From a bacterium (GTDB lineage Bacteria; UBA8248): a DNA stretch of 64,000 nucleotides. The stretch is taken from positions 4,384,001 through 4,448,000 of the forward strand of contig OZ242260.1 in NCBI GenBank assembly GCA_965207065.1, written 5' to 3'. The translations under genes and the position numbers were made by a program. Shown here in pieces: positions 7,406-12,093 of the stretch (its first letter is position 1; every line of letters begins with the position of its first letter). The notes below the pieces were generated by a model that made no database searches, was not told the origin of the DNA, and saw nothing but the letters and a program-made list of their open reading frames with translations.

Positions 7406-8605
7406 ATGTCAAAGACAGGACGGGACCTGCTCGAGGCCGCGCGGGGCGATGTTCCTGAGATCACGGCGGAAGAAGTGAAGACCGCTATCGATTCGGGCGC
7501 CGAGGTGGCGCTCATCGACGTGCGCGAACCCGACGAGTTCCGGGGCGGCTACCTGCCGGGCGCCGAGCACGTGAGCCGCGGATTCCTGGAACTCAAGATC
7601 GAACAGGTCGTTCCCGATAGGACGACGCCCATCGTCGCTTACTGCGCGGGCGGCGTGCGCTCGCTGCTCGCGGGCCAGGCGCTGCAATCCATGGGCTATC
7701 AGAACGTGAAATCCATGGCCGGCGGATACGGGAAGTGGAAAGACCTGGCCTTTCCCGTGCAAGTGGACAAGCAGATGAGCGCCGAGCAGTTAAACCGCTA
7801 CAGCCGCCACTTCCTGCTCTCCCAGATCGGGGAAAAAGGCCAGTCCAAACTCCTGGACGCCAAGGTCGTCCTGATAGGCGCGGGAGGTCTGGGCTCTCCC
7901 ACCGGTCTTTACCTGACCGCCATGGGGGTGGGCAACATCGGCATCGTGGACCTGGACGTCGTGGACATGAGCAACCTGCAGCGCCAGATCGTCCACACGA
8001 ACGACCGCGTGGGAATCTCCAAGGTCGAGAGCGCGACAGCTACCCTCACCGCGCTGAACCCGGACGTGAACGTCATCGCGCACGAAGATAGAATCAACCG
8101 CGACAACGCGCTCGACATCCTCAAAGACTACGACGTCATCGTGAACGGGGCGGACAACTTCCCGACGCGCTACCTCGTGAACGACGCGGCGGTATTTCTC
8201 GGGAAACCCATCGTCGACGCCTCCATCTTCAAGTTCGAGGGCCAGGCCACCGTCTATCATCCCGGAGAGGGCGGCCCCTGCTACCGCTGCCTCTACCCCG
8301 AACCGCCGCCACCCGGCATGGTGCCCTCCTGTCAGGACGCAGGCGTGCTCGGCGCGCTTTGCGGCACCATGGGATCCATCCAGGCGACGGAGACGGCCAA
8401 ACTCATCGTTGGCTTCGGCGAACCGCTGATCGGCAAGCTGCTGATGTACGACGCGCTCAAGTCGCAGTTCAGGACGCTCAAGATCAGGCGCGACCCCGCC
8501 TGCCCGGTGTGCGGAGACAGCCCCTCCATCACCGAGCTCATCGACTATGAGTTCTTCTGCGGCCTCACGGAAGCACCCGCCGGCGGCGCCGCCAACGGTC
8601 ATTGA
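7406..8605 (+). CDS. moeB: Rhodanese + ThiF/MoeB sulfur-carrier adenylyltransferase (MoeZ-like)
   Basis: N-terminal rhodanese (IDVREPDE, YCAGGVRS), then RYSRH, GAGGLGSP, SNLQRQ, DNFPTRY, CYRC and CPVC. Confidence 0.92.
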   Translation: MSKTGRDLLEAARGDVPEITAEEVKTAIDSGAEVALIDVREPDEFRGGYLPGAEHVSRGFLELKIEQVVPDRTTPIVAYCAGGVRSLLAGQALQSMGYQNVKSMAGGYGKWKDLAFPVQVDKQMSAEQLNRYSRHFLLSQIGEKGQSKLLDAKVVLIGAGGLGSPTGLYLTAMGVGNIGIVDLDVVDMSNLQRQIVHTNDRVGISKVESATATLTALNPDVNVIAHEDRINRDNALDILKDYDVIVNGADNFPTRYLVNDAAVFLGKPIVDASIFKFEGQATVYHPGEGGPCYRCLYPEPPPPGMVPSCQDAGVLGALCGTMGSIQATETAKLIVGFGEPLIGKLLMYDALKSQFRTLKIRRDPACPVCGDSPSITELIDYEFFCGLTEAPAGGAANGH

Positions 8606-8665
8606 TGGGAACTAAACAGGCCGTCAAGCAGATATAGGGAATCAACGAAAGCCGAACCATAATAC

Positions 8666-8697
8666 ACCCCCGGGGCGAAATGTTCCGGGGGTTTTTC
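8666..8697 (+). terminator. Rho-independent terminator after moeB
   Basis: Stem ACCCCCGGGGC/GTTCCGGGGGT followed by TTTT. Confidence 0.75.
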
Positions 8698-8728
8698 TAA
8701 GTCCTACATGAAAATCAAAAAATATTTC

Positions 8729-8757
8729 TTGCAAAACAATAATTTTTGACTTATAGT
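8729..8757 (+). promoter_or_regulatory. Sigma70-type promoter of the retron-like operon
   Basis: TTGCAA (8729-8734), 17 nt spacer, TATAGT (8752-8757); overlapped by the inverted repeat 8715-8726/8738-8749. Confidence 0.7.
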
Positions 8758-8761
8758 TAGA

Positions 8762-9200
8762 AAAGATGTGGCAGGGTGATTCGCCCTGTATGTTCTTTGA
8801 CAATCCATCTTCGGGTATGGTGTTTAGGCCTACCATCTGACGCCTCTCCAAGCGTTCGTTTTTCTGGGTGCTTGCTCTTGAAATTTAGGCAATGCCTAAA
8901 ATCCAGTGTAAAACTCCGAACACTGTGATTACCCGTTTTATGCAGCCTGAGACATATCGATGCTTCAGCCCTTTCTTGGGGAGCATCGGTTCTTTGGTCA
9001 GTAAGCATTTGAAAATGAAGTATGCATATAACGGGCGTTCGCTCTATTGATGGACATTATAGGCGGGCTAACGAATGAGGGGTCTTAAGGGAGACTCCGC
9101 CAGTTTCTAGTCGAGAACAGAGGAGGTGAACAGATGAAAATAACTTAAGCACCAATAAATTCCGCCCGCCTGATTTATCCACAGAATAGGAAAATAAAAA
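8762..9200 (+). ncRNA. Putative retron msr-msd / structured leader RNA
   Basis: No credible long ORF; dense hairpins; inverted repeats 8932-8944/9023-9035 and 9061-9068/9164-9171; directly upstream of a retron-type RT operon. Confidence 0.6.
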
Positions 9201-9201
9201 A

Positions 9202-9522
9202 ATGGATAAAAATCGAAACTCGAAGATGGGCCTTGAGAGGGCCGCAAAAGACATTATCAAAGTCGGTTACAAACTTCTTCGACAACAAAGCGACCCTCTC
9301 ATGGCGGGGACTTCAAAAGTAGTTCGTCGCCGACTCAAGCAGTTGGAACGTCAGCTACAAAATAAGCGAGTTCCACTTCCACAAAAAGAATTGGACAAAA
9401 TCGCTACAGAAGTCGCTGACACGATTAGCTGTCTTATGAAGTCCCTCATTCGTTACTTATTTTCCGCAATCCACCATTGCGAGTTATTCATAGTATGGAA
9501 ACTAAAATTGGCAACACATTAA
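9202..9522 (+). CDS. Small basic, probably helical protein; candidate retron effector
   Basis: 106-aa ORF with AGGA RBS; overlaps the HTH gene start; first gene of the RT operon; no recognisable domain. Confidence 0.6.
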   Translation: MDKNRNSKMGLERAAKDIIKVGYKLLRQQSDPLMAGTSKVVRRRLKQLERQLQNKRVPLPQKELDKIATEVADTISCLMKSLIRYLFSAIHHCELFIVWKLKLATH

Positions 9523-9800
9523 AAGTATTAAGGGTGGCTGCAGGCATAAACCAAGCGACCATGGCAAAAAGGCTAGAAATTACCCAAAATTATTTATCAC
9601 TTGTCGAAAATAACCACAAAGAACCAAGTCTCTCTTTTCTAAAAAAGTTCGCCGGCAATTTTGACATTCCCCTCGGGTATTTTTTGTGGCTCGCATTGGA
9701 TAAACAAGAAAATAACGAGGAAGAAGAGTTACGTGAAAAAATGGACTTGTTGCTAGAGCAAATATTGGTAGGCAGAAGAAAAAAAAATGCCTGGAAATAA
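9495..9800 (+). CDS. XRE/Cro-C1 helix-turn-helix protein (retron-associated)
   Basis: IGNTLKVLRVAAGINQATMAKRLEITQNYLSLVENNHKEPSLSFL; overlaps the RT start by 14 nt. Confidence 0.85.
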   Translation: METKIGNTLKVLRVAAGINQATMAKRLEITQNYLSLVENNHKEPSLSFLKKFAGNFDIPLGYFLWLALDKQENNEEEELREKMDLLLEQILVGRRKKNAWK

Positions 9801-10734
9801 AAAGGCAAAATTAAAATCATTCTGGAACATACGAACGTCGAAAGATTTGTCACGCCTGCTCGGTGTAAAAGAAGAAATCTTAAACAAGATTTCGCAATCA
9901 GCACATTTGATGTACCGATCGCGAAATGAGCCTAAGAAAACTGGAGGGACTAGGCCAATAGACAGTCCTAGTAGTCATCTAAAATGGATACAATCAAAGA
10001 TTAACAAGTGTTTATTGCAAAGAACTCGCGTCCATAAATCTGCAATGGGAGGTATCCGCGGTAAAAGATTGAAAGACAATGCGGAAAAACATGTAGGAAA
10101 AAATTTAGTTGGCAAATTCGATTTAGAAAATTACTTTACTAACATTTCTCATAAGCAAGTCTATAATCGATTTTGCTCTATGGGGTGCTCCCCAGATGTG
10201 GCTAGAATTCTCACTAAACTAACAACATATAAAGGAAGAATTCCCCAAGGAGCGCCAACAAGTACTATGCTTGCGAATTTAGTAGCTGCTTATGCAAGAG
10301 ACAATCATAGTTTCAATGCAAGGATTGATTCGCTGGCTAGAAAACGTAATGCAACCGCTACTACCTGGGTTGATGATGTCACAATCTCGGGCCCATGTTA
10401 TATCCAAAAAGAAGCCAATACTTTCGAGAAAATTGCCAGGCAAAGTGGTTTCATTCCAAACACTGATAAAAATGAATTCATAAACAGCAACCAGCAACAA
10501 TTCGTCACTGGGGCAGTTGTCAATCAAAAAGTAAGCGCCTCAAAAGACTACAGAAAAGCTATACGAGCCGAACTCCATCAACTAAAAGTCCATGGTCCAA
10601 GCAACATTTGCAAAGAACCAATCAAAAAAGTAAAGGCGAAGCTTCGGAGCAAAATTGCACATGTAGACAATCTGAACCACGAACAAGGTGAAAAACTTCT
10701 AAAAGAATTCAACGCTATCGACTGGGACTCTTAA
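9787..10734 (+). CDS. Retron-type reverse transcriptase
   Basis: PKKTGGTRPIDSP; retron region X NAEKH; FDLENYF; PQGAPTSTMLANL; catalytic WVDD; retron region Y VTG (FVTGAVVN); AT-rich. Confidence 0.9.
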   Translation: MPGNKKAKLKSFWNIRTSKDLSRLLGVKEEILNKISQSAHLMYRSRNEPKKTGGTRPIDSPSSHLKWIQSKINKCLLQRTRVHKSAMGGIRGKRLKDNAEKHVGKNLVGKFDLENYFTNISHKQVYNRFCSMGCSPDVARILTKLTTYKGRIPQGAPTSTMLANLVAAYARDNHSFNARIDSLARKRNATATTWVDDVTISGPCYIQKEANTFEKIARQSGFIPNTDKNEFINSNQQQFVTGAVVNQKVSASKDYRKAIRAELHQLKVHGPSNICKEPIKKVKAKLRSKIAHVDNLNHEQGEKLLKEFNAIDWDS

Positions 10735-10813
10735 AAGTCGCCAAACATAAGAAATATCTAAACAAAAACACTGAGAAACTTAAAAAAACTAACTCCTCCA
10801 ATCAGAAAAATCC

Positions 10814-11170
10814 CTACCCAACCTCCTCCAGCCTGGCCGCATCCATCACCGGTCTTATGGGGTATTGGCCCCGCAGGAGTTCGGCGAGAAAACCCAGGTG
10901 TTCGGCGAGGGCCGACATGTGCGCGGCGGCGTAGCGGGCGGATAGCGCACCGGCCTCTTGCGCCAGGGCTTCGCGCGCATCTGTGGCGGGAGCCTCCTGG
11001 GCGGCCAGGGCGTTAAAGGCATCAAGCAGGGCGCAGATGTCTTCATGCGCTCCCGCATATTCCGTCTTCAGCGCATAGGGGCTTCTCAGGATGAGGTGCA
11101 CGGGGTTTTGCGTGTTCGATGACTGATCGAGCATGCAGCGGCTTCGTCTCTGGTCGTAGTTTTCGGGCAT
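10814..11170 (-). CDS. Hypothetical protein
   Basis: Ala-rich ORF with host-like GC immediately downstream of the MBL hydrolase gene; start uncertain. Confidence 0.45.
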   Translation of the reverse strand: MPENYDQRRSRCMLDQSSNTQNPVHLILRSPYALKTEYAGAHEDICALLDAFNALAAQEAPATDAREALAQEAGALSARYAAAHMSALAEHLGFLAELLRGQYPIRPVMDAARLEEVG

Positions 11171-11178
11171 CGTCCTCT

Positions 11179-12093
11179 TCAACCTCCCCGCGCGTCGTGG
11201 AGCGATATCCCCTGCTCGCCACGGCCTTTGAACTCGTTGTAGAGCTTCATCACGGCCTGCTCGACGCGGTCGGGCTTCATCCACTCCGTATACCTGCCCA
11301 GAGGAATCTCGCGCGCGGCGCGCTTGGCGGGCACACCTTTTTCGAAGCGTTTTTTCGCCTCCCGGCGCACGAGCCGGAGGTAGCTTAAAGTTTTCTCGAG
11401 CGCGCGCTTATCCCCAGGCGGCCCGTGCCCCGGAACAATAGTATCGACCGAAAAAGTTTTGAGTATCTTGTCCGCGATCCGTATCCACCCGCCGATATGG
11501 GCGTCGAAGGTGGCGGGCGTAACGTAGTGAAAGCAGATATCGCCTGTGAAGAGAACACGCTCCTCAGGCAGATAGACGACTGTGTCGCCTTTAGAATGCG
11601 CGTGGCCCAGGTGGTGGAGTTCCACGACGCGCTTGCCCAGGCGAAGCGTCATACCGCCCTCGTAGGTGACGTCGGGAAAGCGTGGCTTAAGCCTTTTGAG
11701 TTCGCCTGCGTATTCGGGGTTCACGCCCCGGTAGTGCGCGAGGTCGAGCCCCGTCTCTATCATCCGCTCGCGCATGTAGCGGTGCGCGATGACGGGGATG
11801 TCCTTATCGAACCATGTAAGCCCCAGGGTGTGATCCGCATGGTGGTGGGTGCAGACGATTTTGCGCACCGGCTTTCGGGTCGCCTTTCGGATCGATTCCT
11901 GAAAAGCCTGCGTCATGGGCCGCACGTACAGAGAATCGATGACCAAGGCCTCGCTGTCCCCCACGATGAGGCCTGCGTTCGAGACGTTCAGCCCGCCCCC
12001 CTGAATGTAGGCGTAGACGCCCGGGGCCATGCGCTGAAGCCCCGTCTTCCAGCTTGCGGGTATTTTCCGGGTCTCGACCATACGTACCTCCAT
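11179..12093 (-). CDS. Metallo-beta-lactamase fold hydrolase (cyclase-like)
   Basis: THHHADH, AHSKGD, LFTGD and VPGHG motifs. Confidence 0.88.
   Translation of the reverse strand: MEVRMVETRKIPASWKTGLQRMAPGVYAYIQGGGLNVSNAGLIVGDSEALVIDSLYVRPMTQAFQESIRKATRKPVRKIVCTHHHADHTLGLTWFDKDIPVIAHRYMRERMIETGLDLAHYRGVNPEYAGELKRLKPRFPDVTYEGGMTLRLGKRVVELHHLGHAHSKGDTVVYLPEERVLFTGDICFHYVTPATFDAHIGGWIRIADKILKTFSVDTIVPGHGPPGDKRALEKTLSYLRLVRREAKKRFEKGVPAKRAAREIPLGRYTEWMKPDRVEQAVMKLYNEFKGRGEQGISLHDARGG

What the first reader, a model, noticed from the sequence alone, without database searches (positions are those of the whole stretch)
8834..9214. Hidden 4-codon mini-ORF with a perfect RBS, and stems masking translation starts in the retron leader
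Seen: AGGAGGTG (9121-9128) followed by ATG AAA ATA ACT TAA (9134-9148, MKIT). This is the strongest Shine-Dalgarno in the island, yet it serves only four codons. CATCTG-A-CGCCTCT (8834-8847) is complementary to that SD and ATG (9122-9136, 13 pairs including 2 G-U). Separately, TTTATCCA (9174-9181) pairs with TGGATAAA (9203-9210), covering the start codon of the 106-aa ORF. Inference: the RNA is both RT template and a translationally locked mRNA; reverse transcription or ribosome loading on the mini-ORF could unlock effector synthesis. Translational repression of the effector by its own RNA has been reported for type VI retrons; a uORF relay would, as far as I know, be new.
Basis: partly seen in the sequence, partly recalled or inferred. 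Interest (0 to 1): 0.72.

Follow-up and report, generated by a model that had tools for sequence, protein, structure and literature searches.

The report
Masked ribosome site in retron leader
The "perfect" ribosome-binding site and its four-codon reading frame sit in the closing stem of the folded leader RNA of a type VI retron, a known anti-phage system. The ribosome-binding site is conserved in relatives, but the tiny reading frame is not, so it is probably a by-product and not a new control switch.

Summary
The locus is a type VI retron: promoter, about 440 nt of structured leader, a 106-aa small-protein (SP) toxin ORF, HTH_VI and RT.

Independent folds of the window and its 3 DNA homologs give the same nested long-range helices.
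- Two long-range helices show compensatory changes: 6 of 10 columns and 5 of 13 columns.
- The AGGAGGTG is the 3' arm of the basal (a1/a2-like) stem. Its GGAGGTGA core is invariant in 4 of 4 loci, binds the 16S tail very strongly (-17 to -20 kcal/mol) and is masked by a 16S-like 5' arm.
- The 4-codon ORF occurs only in the window's own sub-lineage: the window, a same-genus syntenic locus and two run contigs. It is absent from the 2 distant homologs.
- Its ATG and TAA lie inside helices and its variable middle lies in an interior loop, so RNA structure alone explains the pattern.
- Blocking the mini-ORF in silico does not open the SP start.

A translationally locked toxin mRNA that is also the RT template is already published for Retron-Vpa2 and Retron-Sen3. 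So this is a new member of a known kind, and the uORF relay is unsupported but not excluded. This scan has noted type VI retron leaders on other genomes before.

The parts
8729..8757 (+). Sigma-70-like promoter TTGCAA-17-TATAGT; transcript start inferred near 8764-8766
   Evidence: The same TTGAC..TATAGTTA element stands before the leaders of L001, L004 and L008.
8771..8789 (+). Conserved 5' hairpin, followed by the invariant TCTTTGA motif (8794-8800)
   Evidence: Found in the folds of all 4 loci. There is one compensatory column, CAGGG/CCCTG to CAGAG/CTCTG in L008. [quoted passage not shown]
8804..8816 (+). Helix ii, 5' arm; pairs with SP codons 6-10 (9218-9230)
   Evidence: Pair probabilities 0.82-1.0. 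3 of 500 shuffles reach its duplex energy. 10 columns pair in all 4 loci and 6 of them carry compensatory changes.
8818..8828 (+). Helix iii, 5' arm; pairs with 9144-9154, which covers the last sense codon and the TAA of the mini-ORF
   Evidence: A helix stands at the same nested place in L004 and L008 with unrelated sequence.
8834..8847 (+). Helix iv (basal, a1/a2-like), 5' arm. Its core CGCCTCT resembles the 16S rRNA tail (an anti-SD mimic).
   Evidence: The arm reads C[GA]CCT[CT][TC] in all 4 loci.
8848..9120 (+). Interior of the ncRNA (presumed msr-msd, the RT template); variable in sequence and length among homologs
   Evidence: The msr/msd boundaries and the priming G were not determined.
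9069..9083 (+). Helix v, msd-side arm; complementary to SP codons K-S-L-I-R-Y (9441-9455)
   Evidence: Inverted repeat I5, 13 nt and 100% complementary. The longest interior-to-CDS helix falls at the homologous place in all 4 loci. 13 columns pair in all 4 loci and 5 are compensatory. It is not part of the MFE folds.
9121..9128 (+). SD1: AGGAGGTG, 3' arm of helix iv. The core GGAGGTGA (9122-9129) is invariant in 4 of 4 loci.
   Evidence: Binding to the 16S tail is -17.2 to -19.8 kcal/mol in all 4 loci. Unpaired probability is 0.19 or less over 9122-9128.
9134..9148 (+). 4-codon mini-ORF ATG AAA ATA ACT TAA. ATG is paired in helix iv, TAA is paired in helix iii, and the inner 7 nt form an interior loop.
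   Evidence: L001 reads ATG AAG AAA ATT TAA. Run contigs X4 and X9 carry ATA>AAA. Absent in L004 and L008.
9171..9214 (+). SP-start hairpin (core 9174-9181 / 9203-9210), with the weak SD2 (AGGA, 9188-9191) in its loop
   Evidence: Kept in L001 with a loop 5 nt shorter. L004 and L008 have non-homologous local hairpins that occlude a strong SD2 instead.
9202..9522 (+). SP, the presumed toxin: 106 aa, no Pfam family, modelled as three helices
   Evidence: One search finds no family. One search finds 5 relatives at 78-96% identity, all starting M-D/E-K. One search aligns L004 at 33% identity. One search gives a model with pLDDT 82.3.
9441..9455 (+). Helix v, SP-side arm (codons KSLIRY)
9495..9800 (+). 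HTH_VI gene; overlaps the SP end by 28 nt
   Evidence: PADLOC HTH_VI 4.1e-25; Pfam HTH_3 4e-11.
9787..10734 (+). Retron reverse transcriptase; catalytic box reads WVDD
   Evidence: PADLOC RT_VI 3.2e-67, with RT_III-A close behind at 6.5e-67. Pfam RVT_1 1e-14. Translation.

Best explanation
The flagged stretch is the closing part of the hybrid RNA of a type VI retron, with gene order SP toxin, HTH, RT.

Resting fold. The transcript folds into nested long-range helices:
- helix ii pairs 8804-8816 with SP codons 6-10;
- helix iii pairs 8818-8828 with 9144-9154;
- helix iv, the basal helix, pairs 8834-8847 with 9122-9136;
- a small hairpin covers the SP start;
- helix v pairs the msd segment 9069-9083 with SP codons KSLIRY.

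What the AGGAGGTG is. It is a selected, very strong Shine-Dalgarno element (SD1) forming the 3' arm of the basal, priming-type stem. A 5' arm that mimics the 16S tail keeps it masked. This is the design published for Retron-Sen3, except that here the SP start codon lies 59-80 nt further downstream.

What the mini-ORF is. The four-codon ORF is not part of the conserved design. It arose in the window's own sub-lineage, because an ATG that belongs to an extension of helix iv happens to lie 7 nt after SD1 and the UAA belongs to helix iii.

Inferred steps (none shown here):
1. On triggering, reverse transcription through the msd and RNase H removal of the template dissolve helix v and sever the msr part from the 3' arm.
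2. Helices ii-iv then become intermolecular and fall apart.
3. The released SP mRNA begins at or near SD1, which captures 30S subunits as a loading or standby site for the SP start.
4. In this sub-lineage ribosomes would first run through the mini-ORF.
For: Identity:
- HTH_VI 4.1e-25 and RT_VI 3.2e-67.
- Gene order and promoter.
- The SP model is all-helical, as described for SP toxins (paper passages).

Architecture:
- Independent MFE folds of 4 loci give the same nesting.
- Helix ii has 10 columns paired in all 4 loci, 6 of them compensatory.
- Helix v has 13 such columns, 5 of them compensatory.
- The 5' hairpin has 1 compensatory column.

SD1 is under sequence selection:
- In helix iv, 7 columns pair in all 4 loci.
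- The SD side is invariant and all 3 changes are one-sided, on the 5' arm, switching Watson-Crick and wobble pairs.
- Helices ii and iii changed on both sides over the same divergence.
- SD1 binds the 16S tail at -17.2 to -19.8 kcal/mol in all 4 loci.
- The host has the canonical tail.

The mini-ORF is not conserved:
- 2 of 4 loci carry it.
- Its peptide varies: MKIT in the window, MKKI in L001, and ATA>AAA in the X4 and X9 contigs.
- Paired start and stop with a looped interior explain the pattern.
- Tiny ORFs follow 44 of 442 AGGAGG+ATG sites genome-wide.

Published parallels:
- The Sen3 SP RBS lies in the basal stem. Sen3 also has a conserved 5' stem-loop and an IR1-IR2 pairing.
- Vpa2 has its RBS and AUG in stem-loops, and msDNA derepresses translation.
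Against: - Only 4 full-length DNA homologs could be obtained, representing 3 independent lineages. Covariation counts rest on my own anchor-based alignment, because MAFFT misaligned L004 and L008.
- No experiment or read-level RNA data show transcript ends, ribosome binding or msDNA.
- SD1 has no usable start codon behind it in L008, so its 'loading site' role is pure inference. Invariance of SD1 could equally reflect recognition by the RT or HTH.
- Helix v is absent from the MFE folds. Gapless helices of its length occur in 3 to 56 of 200 shuffles per locus. Its support is the homologous placement and covariation, not its length.
- The mini-ORF goes with a weak SP-proximal SD, which is what a functional relay would predict.
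- In Vpa2, msDNA supplied in trans suffices for derepression, which the cis-severing step I infer does not require or explain.
Confidence: 0.55

Rival explanations
1. Once helices iii and iv open, ribosomes load on SD1 and translate the four codons. This is required to deliver ribosomes to the weakly equipped SP start 53 nt downstream, by termination-reinitiation or scanning, or by remodelling the RNA.
For: - SD1 to ATG spacing is optimal (7 nt) and kept in the window, L001 and run contigs X4 and X9.
- The lineages with the mini-ORF have the weakest SP-proximal SD: -4.2 and -7.3 kcal/mol, against -12.1 and -13.0.
- It is the only AGGAGGTG+ATG site in the genome with an ORF of 10 codons or fewer.
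Against: - Absent in 2 of 4 homologs, which keep SD1.
- The two loci that carry it are syntenic sisters, so they count as one evolutionary event.
- Conservation of ATG and TAA is explained by helices iv and iii.
- With 9119-9161 blocked, helix ii stays at P = 1.0 and the SP-start hairpin at 0.76.
- The gap between stop and SP start is 53 nt (47 nt in L001) and holds a hairpin. From recall, that is long for bacterial coupling.
Confidence: 0.15
2. Structure only. The GGAGGTGA/CACCTC pair is just the a1/a2 priming stem, possibly a vestige of an ancestral SP ribosome site as in Sen3. It is held constant by RT or HTH recognition, never meets a ribosome, and the mini-ORF is noise.
For: - It sits exactly where retron a1/a2 repeats sit, closing the msr-msd interior.
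- L008 has no start codon behind it.
- In L004 a GTG 12 nt downstream is in frame with the SP, as expected of a decaying ancestral start.
- RT, HTH and hybrid RNA form a complex in Vpa2.
Against: - A purely structural stem should covary as helices ii, iii and v do. Here the SD side is invariant and only the partner side drifts.
- The invariant 8-mer is the exact complement of the 16S tail.
- As far as I recall, retron RTs read msr stem-loops and not the a1/a2 sequence. This was not tested here.
Confidence: 0.25
3. Minigene or decoy. The unmasked strong-SD four-codon ORF acts on its own, either as a ribosome trap that limits SP synthesis or as a toxic minigene causing peptidyl-tRNA drop-off, as in the bar minigenes of phage lambda (recalled).
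For: Very strong SD, optimal spacing and a 4-codon length. Nothing else supports it.
Against: Restricted to one sub-lineage. The SP is the known effector of this retron type. The peptide and its last sense codon vary.
Confidence: 0.03

Closest known systems
Retron-Sen3 and the cl2075 type VI retrons (Garcia-Rodriguez et al., bioRxiv 10.64898/2026.04.27.721009; abstract and sections 25, 27, 28, 29 read, plus passages found by term search)
   Same: - SP-HTH-RT order.
- ncRNA closed by 5'/3' inverted repeats whose basal stem sequesters an SD.
- Conserved small stem-loop just upstream of the 5' repeat.
- A further long-range repeat that ties the presumed msd to the SP region.
- SP coding sequence under RNA-structure constraint.
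   Different: - In Sen3 the basal-stem SD is the SP's own RBS. Here the SP start lies 59-80 nt downstream of it.
- 2 of 4 loci have a second strong SD directly before the SP, and 2 of 4 have a 4-codon ORF instead.
- The long-range partner lies inside the SP coding sequence (KSLIRY codons), not after the stop codon.
- The SP is 100-107 aa, against 79 aa.
- The SP cluster could not be assigned because the supplementary data are closed.
Retron-Vpa2 hybrid RNA (Zhang et al., bioRxiv 10.1101/2025.10.22.683967; abstract and sections 7-10 read)
   Same: - One transcript holds the msr-msd and a translationally repressed SP.
- The RBS and AUG lie in local stem-loops on an arm beside the msr-msd arm.
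- Inverted repeats join the arms at a central node.
   Different: - No conserved 7-nt direct repeat between msd and riboregulator was found in these 4 loci.
- The SP is twice as long (55 aa in Vpa2).
- An additional masked SD stands in the basal stem.
- No functional data exist here.
hok/mok/Sok type I toxin-antitoxin (recalled; PMC9841398 seen only in a search listing)
   Same: A toxin mRNA locked by long-range fold-back pairing.
   Different: - mok overlaps hok and is a long frame, whereas here there are 4 codons and a 53-nt gap.
- Control there is by antisense RNA and 3' processing, not by reverse transcription.
tisB/IstR-1 ribosome standby site (recalled; not checked in a paper here)
   Same: A toxin start buried in structure is served by an upstream ribosome-loading site that becomes available only after the 5' region is remodelled.
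   Different: The tisB standby site is unstructured and not SD-like. SD1 here is a perfect SD masked by an anti-SD mimic, and a standby function is only inferred.

Membership tests
Type VI retron | RT belongs to the type VI retron RT clade | tested here: inconclusive
   The best PADLOC model is RT_VI (3.2e-67, 224.8 bits), but RT_III-A scores almost the same (6.5e-67, 224.0 bits). No tree was built.
Type VI retron | Cro/C1-type HTH (cl2_1 / HTH_VI) upstream of, or overlapping, the RT | tested here: met
   HTH_VI 4.1e-25, covering model positions 1-86 of 92. The next family scores 2.8e-07. The gene overlaps the RT start by 14 nt.
Type VI retron | Small accessory protein (SP) in SP-HTH-RT order, helical with a hydrophobic C-terminal helix | tested here: met
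   ORF 9202-9522 precedes the HTH. It is conserved in 5 database proteins and in L004 and L008. The model has three helices with a long C-terminal helix 61-105, pLDDT 82.3. Toxicity was not tested.
Type VI retron | Structured ncRNA upstream of the SP with terminal inverted repeats and a conserved 5' stem-loop | tested here: met
   No Rfam family matches.
Type VI retron | RT-dependent msDNA, and SP/HTH acting as toxin and antitoxin | not testable with these tools
   Needs expression and nucleic-acid analysis.
Hybrid RNA with translationally masked SP (Vpa2/Sen3 design) | SP ribosome site and/or start codon sequestered in conserved RNA structure | tested here: met
   In silico only. U and G of the SP AUG are unpaired at 0.18 and 0.07 in the window. 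SD2 is paired in L004 and L008. Helix ii covers SP codons 6-10 in all 4 loci.
uORF / leader-peptide translational control | The short ORF is conserved in presence and position among homologs | tested here: not met
   Present in 2 of 4 loci, both from one sub-lineage. Two further close-relative contigs keep it.
uORF / leader-peptide translational control | A ribosome on the short ORF changes the structure that masks the downstream start | tested here: not met
   Constraint folding gives helix ii P = 1.0 and the SP-start hairpin 0.76 against 0.88 without the constraint. This is a thermodynamic model only.
uORF / leader-peptide translational control | The short ORF is translated | not testable with these tools
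   Needs Ribo-seq or toeprinting. The single RNA contig (X9) shows presence in an RNA library only.
Translational coupling of the hok/mok type | The leader frame overlaps or abuts the toxin start | tested here: not met
   The stop codon ends at 9148 and the SP start is at 9202, a 53-nt gap in a different frame.

The most novel reading that the evidence does not exclude
In this retron lineage the invariant, 16S-masked SD1 is the real ribosome entry point of the toxin mRNA. It is exposed only after reverse transcription severs or remodels the leader. In the sub-lineage that lost a good SP-proximal SD, the four-codon ORF has become an obligatory start-stop relay that hands ribosomes on to the toxin start. 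That would be a reverse-transcription-gated uORF switch, which to my knowledge is not in print for any retron. Two literature searches and term searches in both type VI papers found none.
Probability: 0.15. Interest if true: 0.6.

Novelty: new member of a known kind. Interest (0 to 1): 0.35.

Why it matters
How msDNA unlocks toxin translation in type VI retrons is still open; both preprints leave it as a model. This lineage offers a clean natural comparison:
- all four loci keep an ultra-strong SD masked by a mimic of the 16S tail;
- two have a second SD at the toxin start;
- two have a four-codon ORF instead.

Testing these side by side would show whether the basal-stem SD is a ribosome-loading site, a vestige or a protein-binding site. 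If the mini-ORF proved necessary, it would add a leader-ORF relay to retron biology. If not, the locus is an ordinary, divergent type VI retron on a low-GC island of an uncultured bacterium.

Tried and rejected
More homolog DNA:
- SP patterns in genome contigs gave 1 locus.
- SP patterns in metagenome contigs gave none. HTH patterns there gave 2 loci, and only L008 reaches the leader.
- Viral contigs gave 1 partial HTH match, which I did not follow up. A leader motif pattern found nothing there.
- tblastn of the HTH against plasmids and phages found nothing at 1e-10.
- The genome search found the system in 3 of 44 genomes (order), 3 of 51 genomes with a strong match at E 1e-50 or better (phylum; 3 more genomes had only weak HTH hits) and 3 of 401 genomes (relatives), always the same 3 including the window's own.

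Other searches and alignments:
- Rfam found no family over 8000-12000.
- MAFFT of the four leaders misaligned L004 and L008, so the count of structure pairs and a covariance model were not used. The leader also exceeds the 400-column limit. I made anchor-based tables in Python instead. The first table used a wrong anchor for helices ii and v and was redone.
- A conserved msd/riboregulator direct repeat of the Vpa2 kind was not found. There were only locus-specific 6-7-mers at about chance level, for example TGAAAAT at 9010 and 9135 and TCCGCC at 9096 and 9161.
- The SP frame is closed upstream of 9202 by a TAG at 9187 (read), so the mini-ORF is not a split SP start.

Sequencing runs:
- Only short contigs were laid.
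- Uncovered parts of the stretch and small word shares say nothing.
Full report
**Observation**

- The 13-pair helix between 8834-8847 and 9122-9136 is part of the minimum-free-energy fold of 8760-9230 (z = -5.18, 0 of 100 shuffles fold as well).
- 11 of its 13 pairs have a probability of 0.96 or more.
- The 16-nt SD+ATG segment alone finds an equally good partner in 12 of 500 shuffled leaders. The whole 3' strand 9121-9154 does so in 0 of 500.
- The SP-start hairpin forms with probability 0.74-0.88 but is weak on its own, at -5.1 kcal/mol.

**What the locus is**

- Positions about 8650-10800 form a 40% G+C island in a roughly 60% G+C genome.
- It carries a promoter-like site at 8729-8757 and about 440 nt without a long ORF.
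- A 106-aa ORF with no Pfam family follows (9202-9522).
- Next come an HTH gene (9495-9800; PADLOC HTH_VI 4.1e-25) and a reverse transcriptase (9787-10734; RT_VI 3.2e-67, with RT_III-A nearly tied at 6.5e-67).
- This is the SP-HTH-RT layout of type VI retrons.
- The SP is modelled as three helices with a long C-terminal helix, as described for SP toxins (passages).

**What is known**

- For Retron-Vpa2, one 'hybrid RNA' holds the msr-msd and a translationally repressed SP. The RBS and AUG sit in stem-loops, and msDNA is needed to derepress translation (sections read).
- For Retron-Sen3 and its lineage, the SP RBS lies in the basal stem formed by the 5' and 3' inverted repeats of the ncRNA. A small conserved stem-loop precedes the 5' repeat. 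A further long-range repeat links the presumed msd to the SP region.
- Neither text mentions a uORF, leader peptide or minigene (term searches).
- Two library searches for retron with uORF or leader peptide gave no retron paper.

**Relatives**

- The SP has only 5 relatives (78-96% identity) in the large protein collection, all starting M-D/E-K.
- DNA was obtained for three homologous loci:
  - L001 is same genus, has 77% SP identity and sits at the same insertion site behind the ThiF-rhodanese gene.
  - L004 is same family, with 33% SP identity in the alignment.
  - L008 is a metagenome contig with 57% HTH identity.
- Wider searches found nothing more.
- Four sequencing runs gave short contigs of close relatives.

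**Architecture**

Independent folds of the four leaders give the same nesting, and it persists when the whole SP is included:

- a 5' hairpin followed by an invariant TCTTTGA;
- helix ii, between the leader (8804-8816) and SP codons 6-10 (9218-9230);
- helix iii (8818-8828 with 9144-9154);
- helix iv (8834-8847 with 9122-9136), which closes the variable interior presumed to be the msr-msd;
- between helix iii and the 3' strand of helix ii, a short arm with a local hairpin at the SP start.

In anchor-based tables:

| Element | Columns paired in all 4 loci | Compensatory |
|---|---|---|
| Helix ii | 10 | 6 |
| 5' hairpin | 5 | 1 |
| Helix v (9069-9083 with SP codons KSLIRY, 9441-9455) | 13 | 5 |

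- Helix iii keeps its place with unrelated sequence in L004 and L008.
- Helix v is inverted repeat I5. Its compensatory changes include a synonymous CTC>CTG matched by G>C in the msd of L008.
- Helix v is not in the MFE folds, and its length alone is not rare in shuffles. Its support is the homologous position and the covariation.

**SD1 against the mini-ORF**

- In helix iv, 7 columns pair in all four loci. The SD side (GGAGGTG, and the following A) is invariant.
- All three changes lie on the 5' arm and only switch Watson-Crick and wobble pairs.
- The 8-mer is the exact complement of the host's 16S tail. It binds at -17.2 to -19.8 kcal/mol in all four loci, against -3 to -9 for the neighbouring genes.
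- So the SD-like element is selected as a sequence, not only as a pairing partner.

The four-codon ORF is different:

- It exists in the window and L001, with 3 of 9 inner bases differing, and in contigs X4 and X9 (9141 T>A, ATA>AAA).
- L004 has only a GTG 12 nt after GGAGG, in frame with the SP. L008 has no start codon within 4-12 nt.
- In the fold, the ATG is paired in an extension of helix iv, the TAA is paired in helix iii, and the 7 variable inner bases are an interior loop with unpaired probability 0.95-1.0.
- 'Start and stop kept, inside free' is therefore what RNA structure alone predicts.
- Genome-wide, tiny ORFs follow 44 of 442 AGGAGG+ATG sites.
- With 9119-9161 held single-stranded, helix ii stays at 1.0 and the SP-start hairpin at 0.76. 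A ribosome on the mini-ORF would not by itself open the SP start.

The SP-proximal SD is weak exactly where the mini-ORF exists (-4.2 and -7.3 kcal/mol) and strong where it does not (-12.1 and -13.0). There are two lineages on each side.

**SP-start hairpin**

- It is kept in L001 with a loop 5 nt shorter.
- In contig X4, 9207 T>G breaks one inner pair while 9182 C>T adds a pair over the A of the AUG.
- L004 and L008 have non-homologous hairpins that cover their strong SD2 instead.
- This is the 'riboregulator arm' idea of Vpa2, realised differently in each lineage.

**Mechanism**

Shown here: the identity of the genes, the nested fold, its covariation, and the invariance and strength of SD1.

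Inferred:
- At rest, SD1, the mini-ORF and the SP start are occluded.
- Reverse transcription through the msd and RNase H removal of the template dissolve helix v and sever the 3' arm from the msr side. Helices ii-iv then come apart.
- The released SP mRNA starts at or near SD1, which captures ribosomes for the SP start 80 nt downstream. In this sub-lineage they would pass through the mini-ORF.

**Comparison and novelty**

- The locus meets the tested features of a type VI retron, except that the RT model score is nearly tied with type III-A.
- It works like Sen3 and Vpa2.
- It differs in that the basal-stem SD is uncoupled from the SP start by 59-80 nt, and the long-range partners lie inside the SP coding sequence.
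- It is a new member of a known kind.
- The uORF relay failed both tests that could be run, conservation and in-silico remodelling. It is not excluded.
- This scan has noted type VI retron leaders on other genomes. Those notes were not tested here and did not change my reading.

**Limits**

- There are four loci representing three lineages.
- The alignment was made by hand with anchors.
- All folding is thermodynamic prediction.
- There are no read-level RNA data.
- The supplementary material of both preprints is closed.

Noticed in passing
window 9069-9083 and 9441-9455: A 13-nt perfect (15 bp with G-U) complement joins the presumed msd to the SP codons K-S-L-I-R-Y. It is kept at the homologous place in all 4 loci, with 5 compensatory columns. 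It looks like the counterpart of Sen3 IR1-IR2, but the 3' partner lies inside the coding sequence.
   Followed up: partly
window 8804-8816 and 9218-9230: The leader pairs with SP codons 6-10 (13 bp). 6 of the 10 columns shared by all 4 loci are compensatory, although the 3' arm is coding.
   Followed up: yes
window 8983-9154 (run X9): A contig from a metatranscriptome library covers 8983-9154. It then runs into Illumina adapter letters, which suggests many molecules end at about 9153-9154, the 3' edge of helix iii. The strand is unknown and DNA carry-over is not excluded.
   Followed up: no
window 9787-10734; L001 3083-4036; L008 1992-2939: The RT catalytic box reads W-V/I-D-D (WVDD, WVDD, WIDD). 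The two papers report YADD for Vpa2 and YVDD for Sen3.
   Followed up: no
window 9465-9522: The HTH start (9495) lies 28 nt inside the SP frame. It has almost no SD (-3.2 kcal/mol) and follows a G+C hairpin at 9465-9481. HTH synthesis may be coupled to, or structurally controlled with, the SP.
   Followed up: no
window 8606-8700 and L001 1905-2000: The retron island sits directly behind the terminator of the same ThiF-rhodanese gene in the window and in the same-genus genome. So this is one old insertion, or a shared integration site.
   Followed up: partly
L008 922-933 with 1664-1677; L004 (reverse strand) 1079-1086 with 1782-1792: In full-length folds, the invariant CTCTTTGA motif after the 5' hairpin pairs with the region of the HTH ribosome site. 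Sen3 is reported to do the same. The window's own fold does not show it.
   Followed up: no
window 9010-9016 and 9135-9141: The 7-nt direct repeat TGAAAAT occurs in the presumed msd and inside the mini-ORF. It recalls the Vpa2 msd/riboregulator repeat, but it is at chance level (about 1.5 expected) and is not kept in the other loci.
   Followed up: partly
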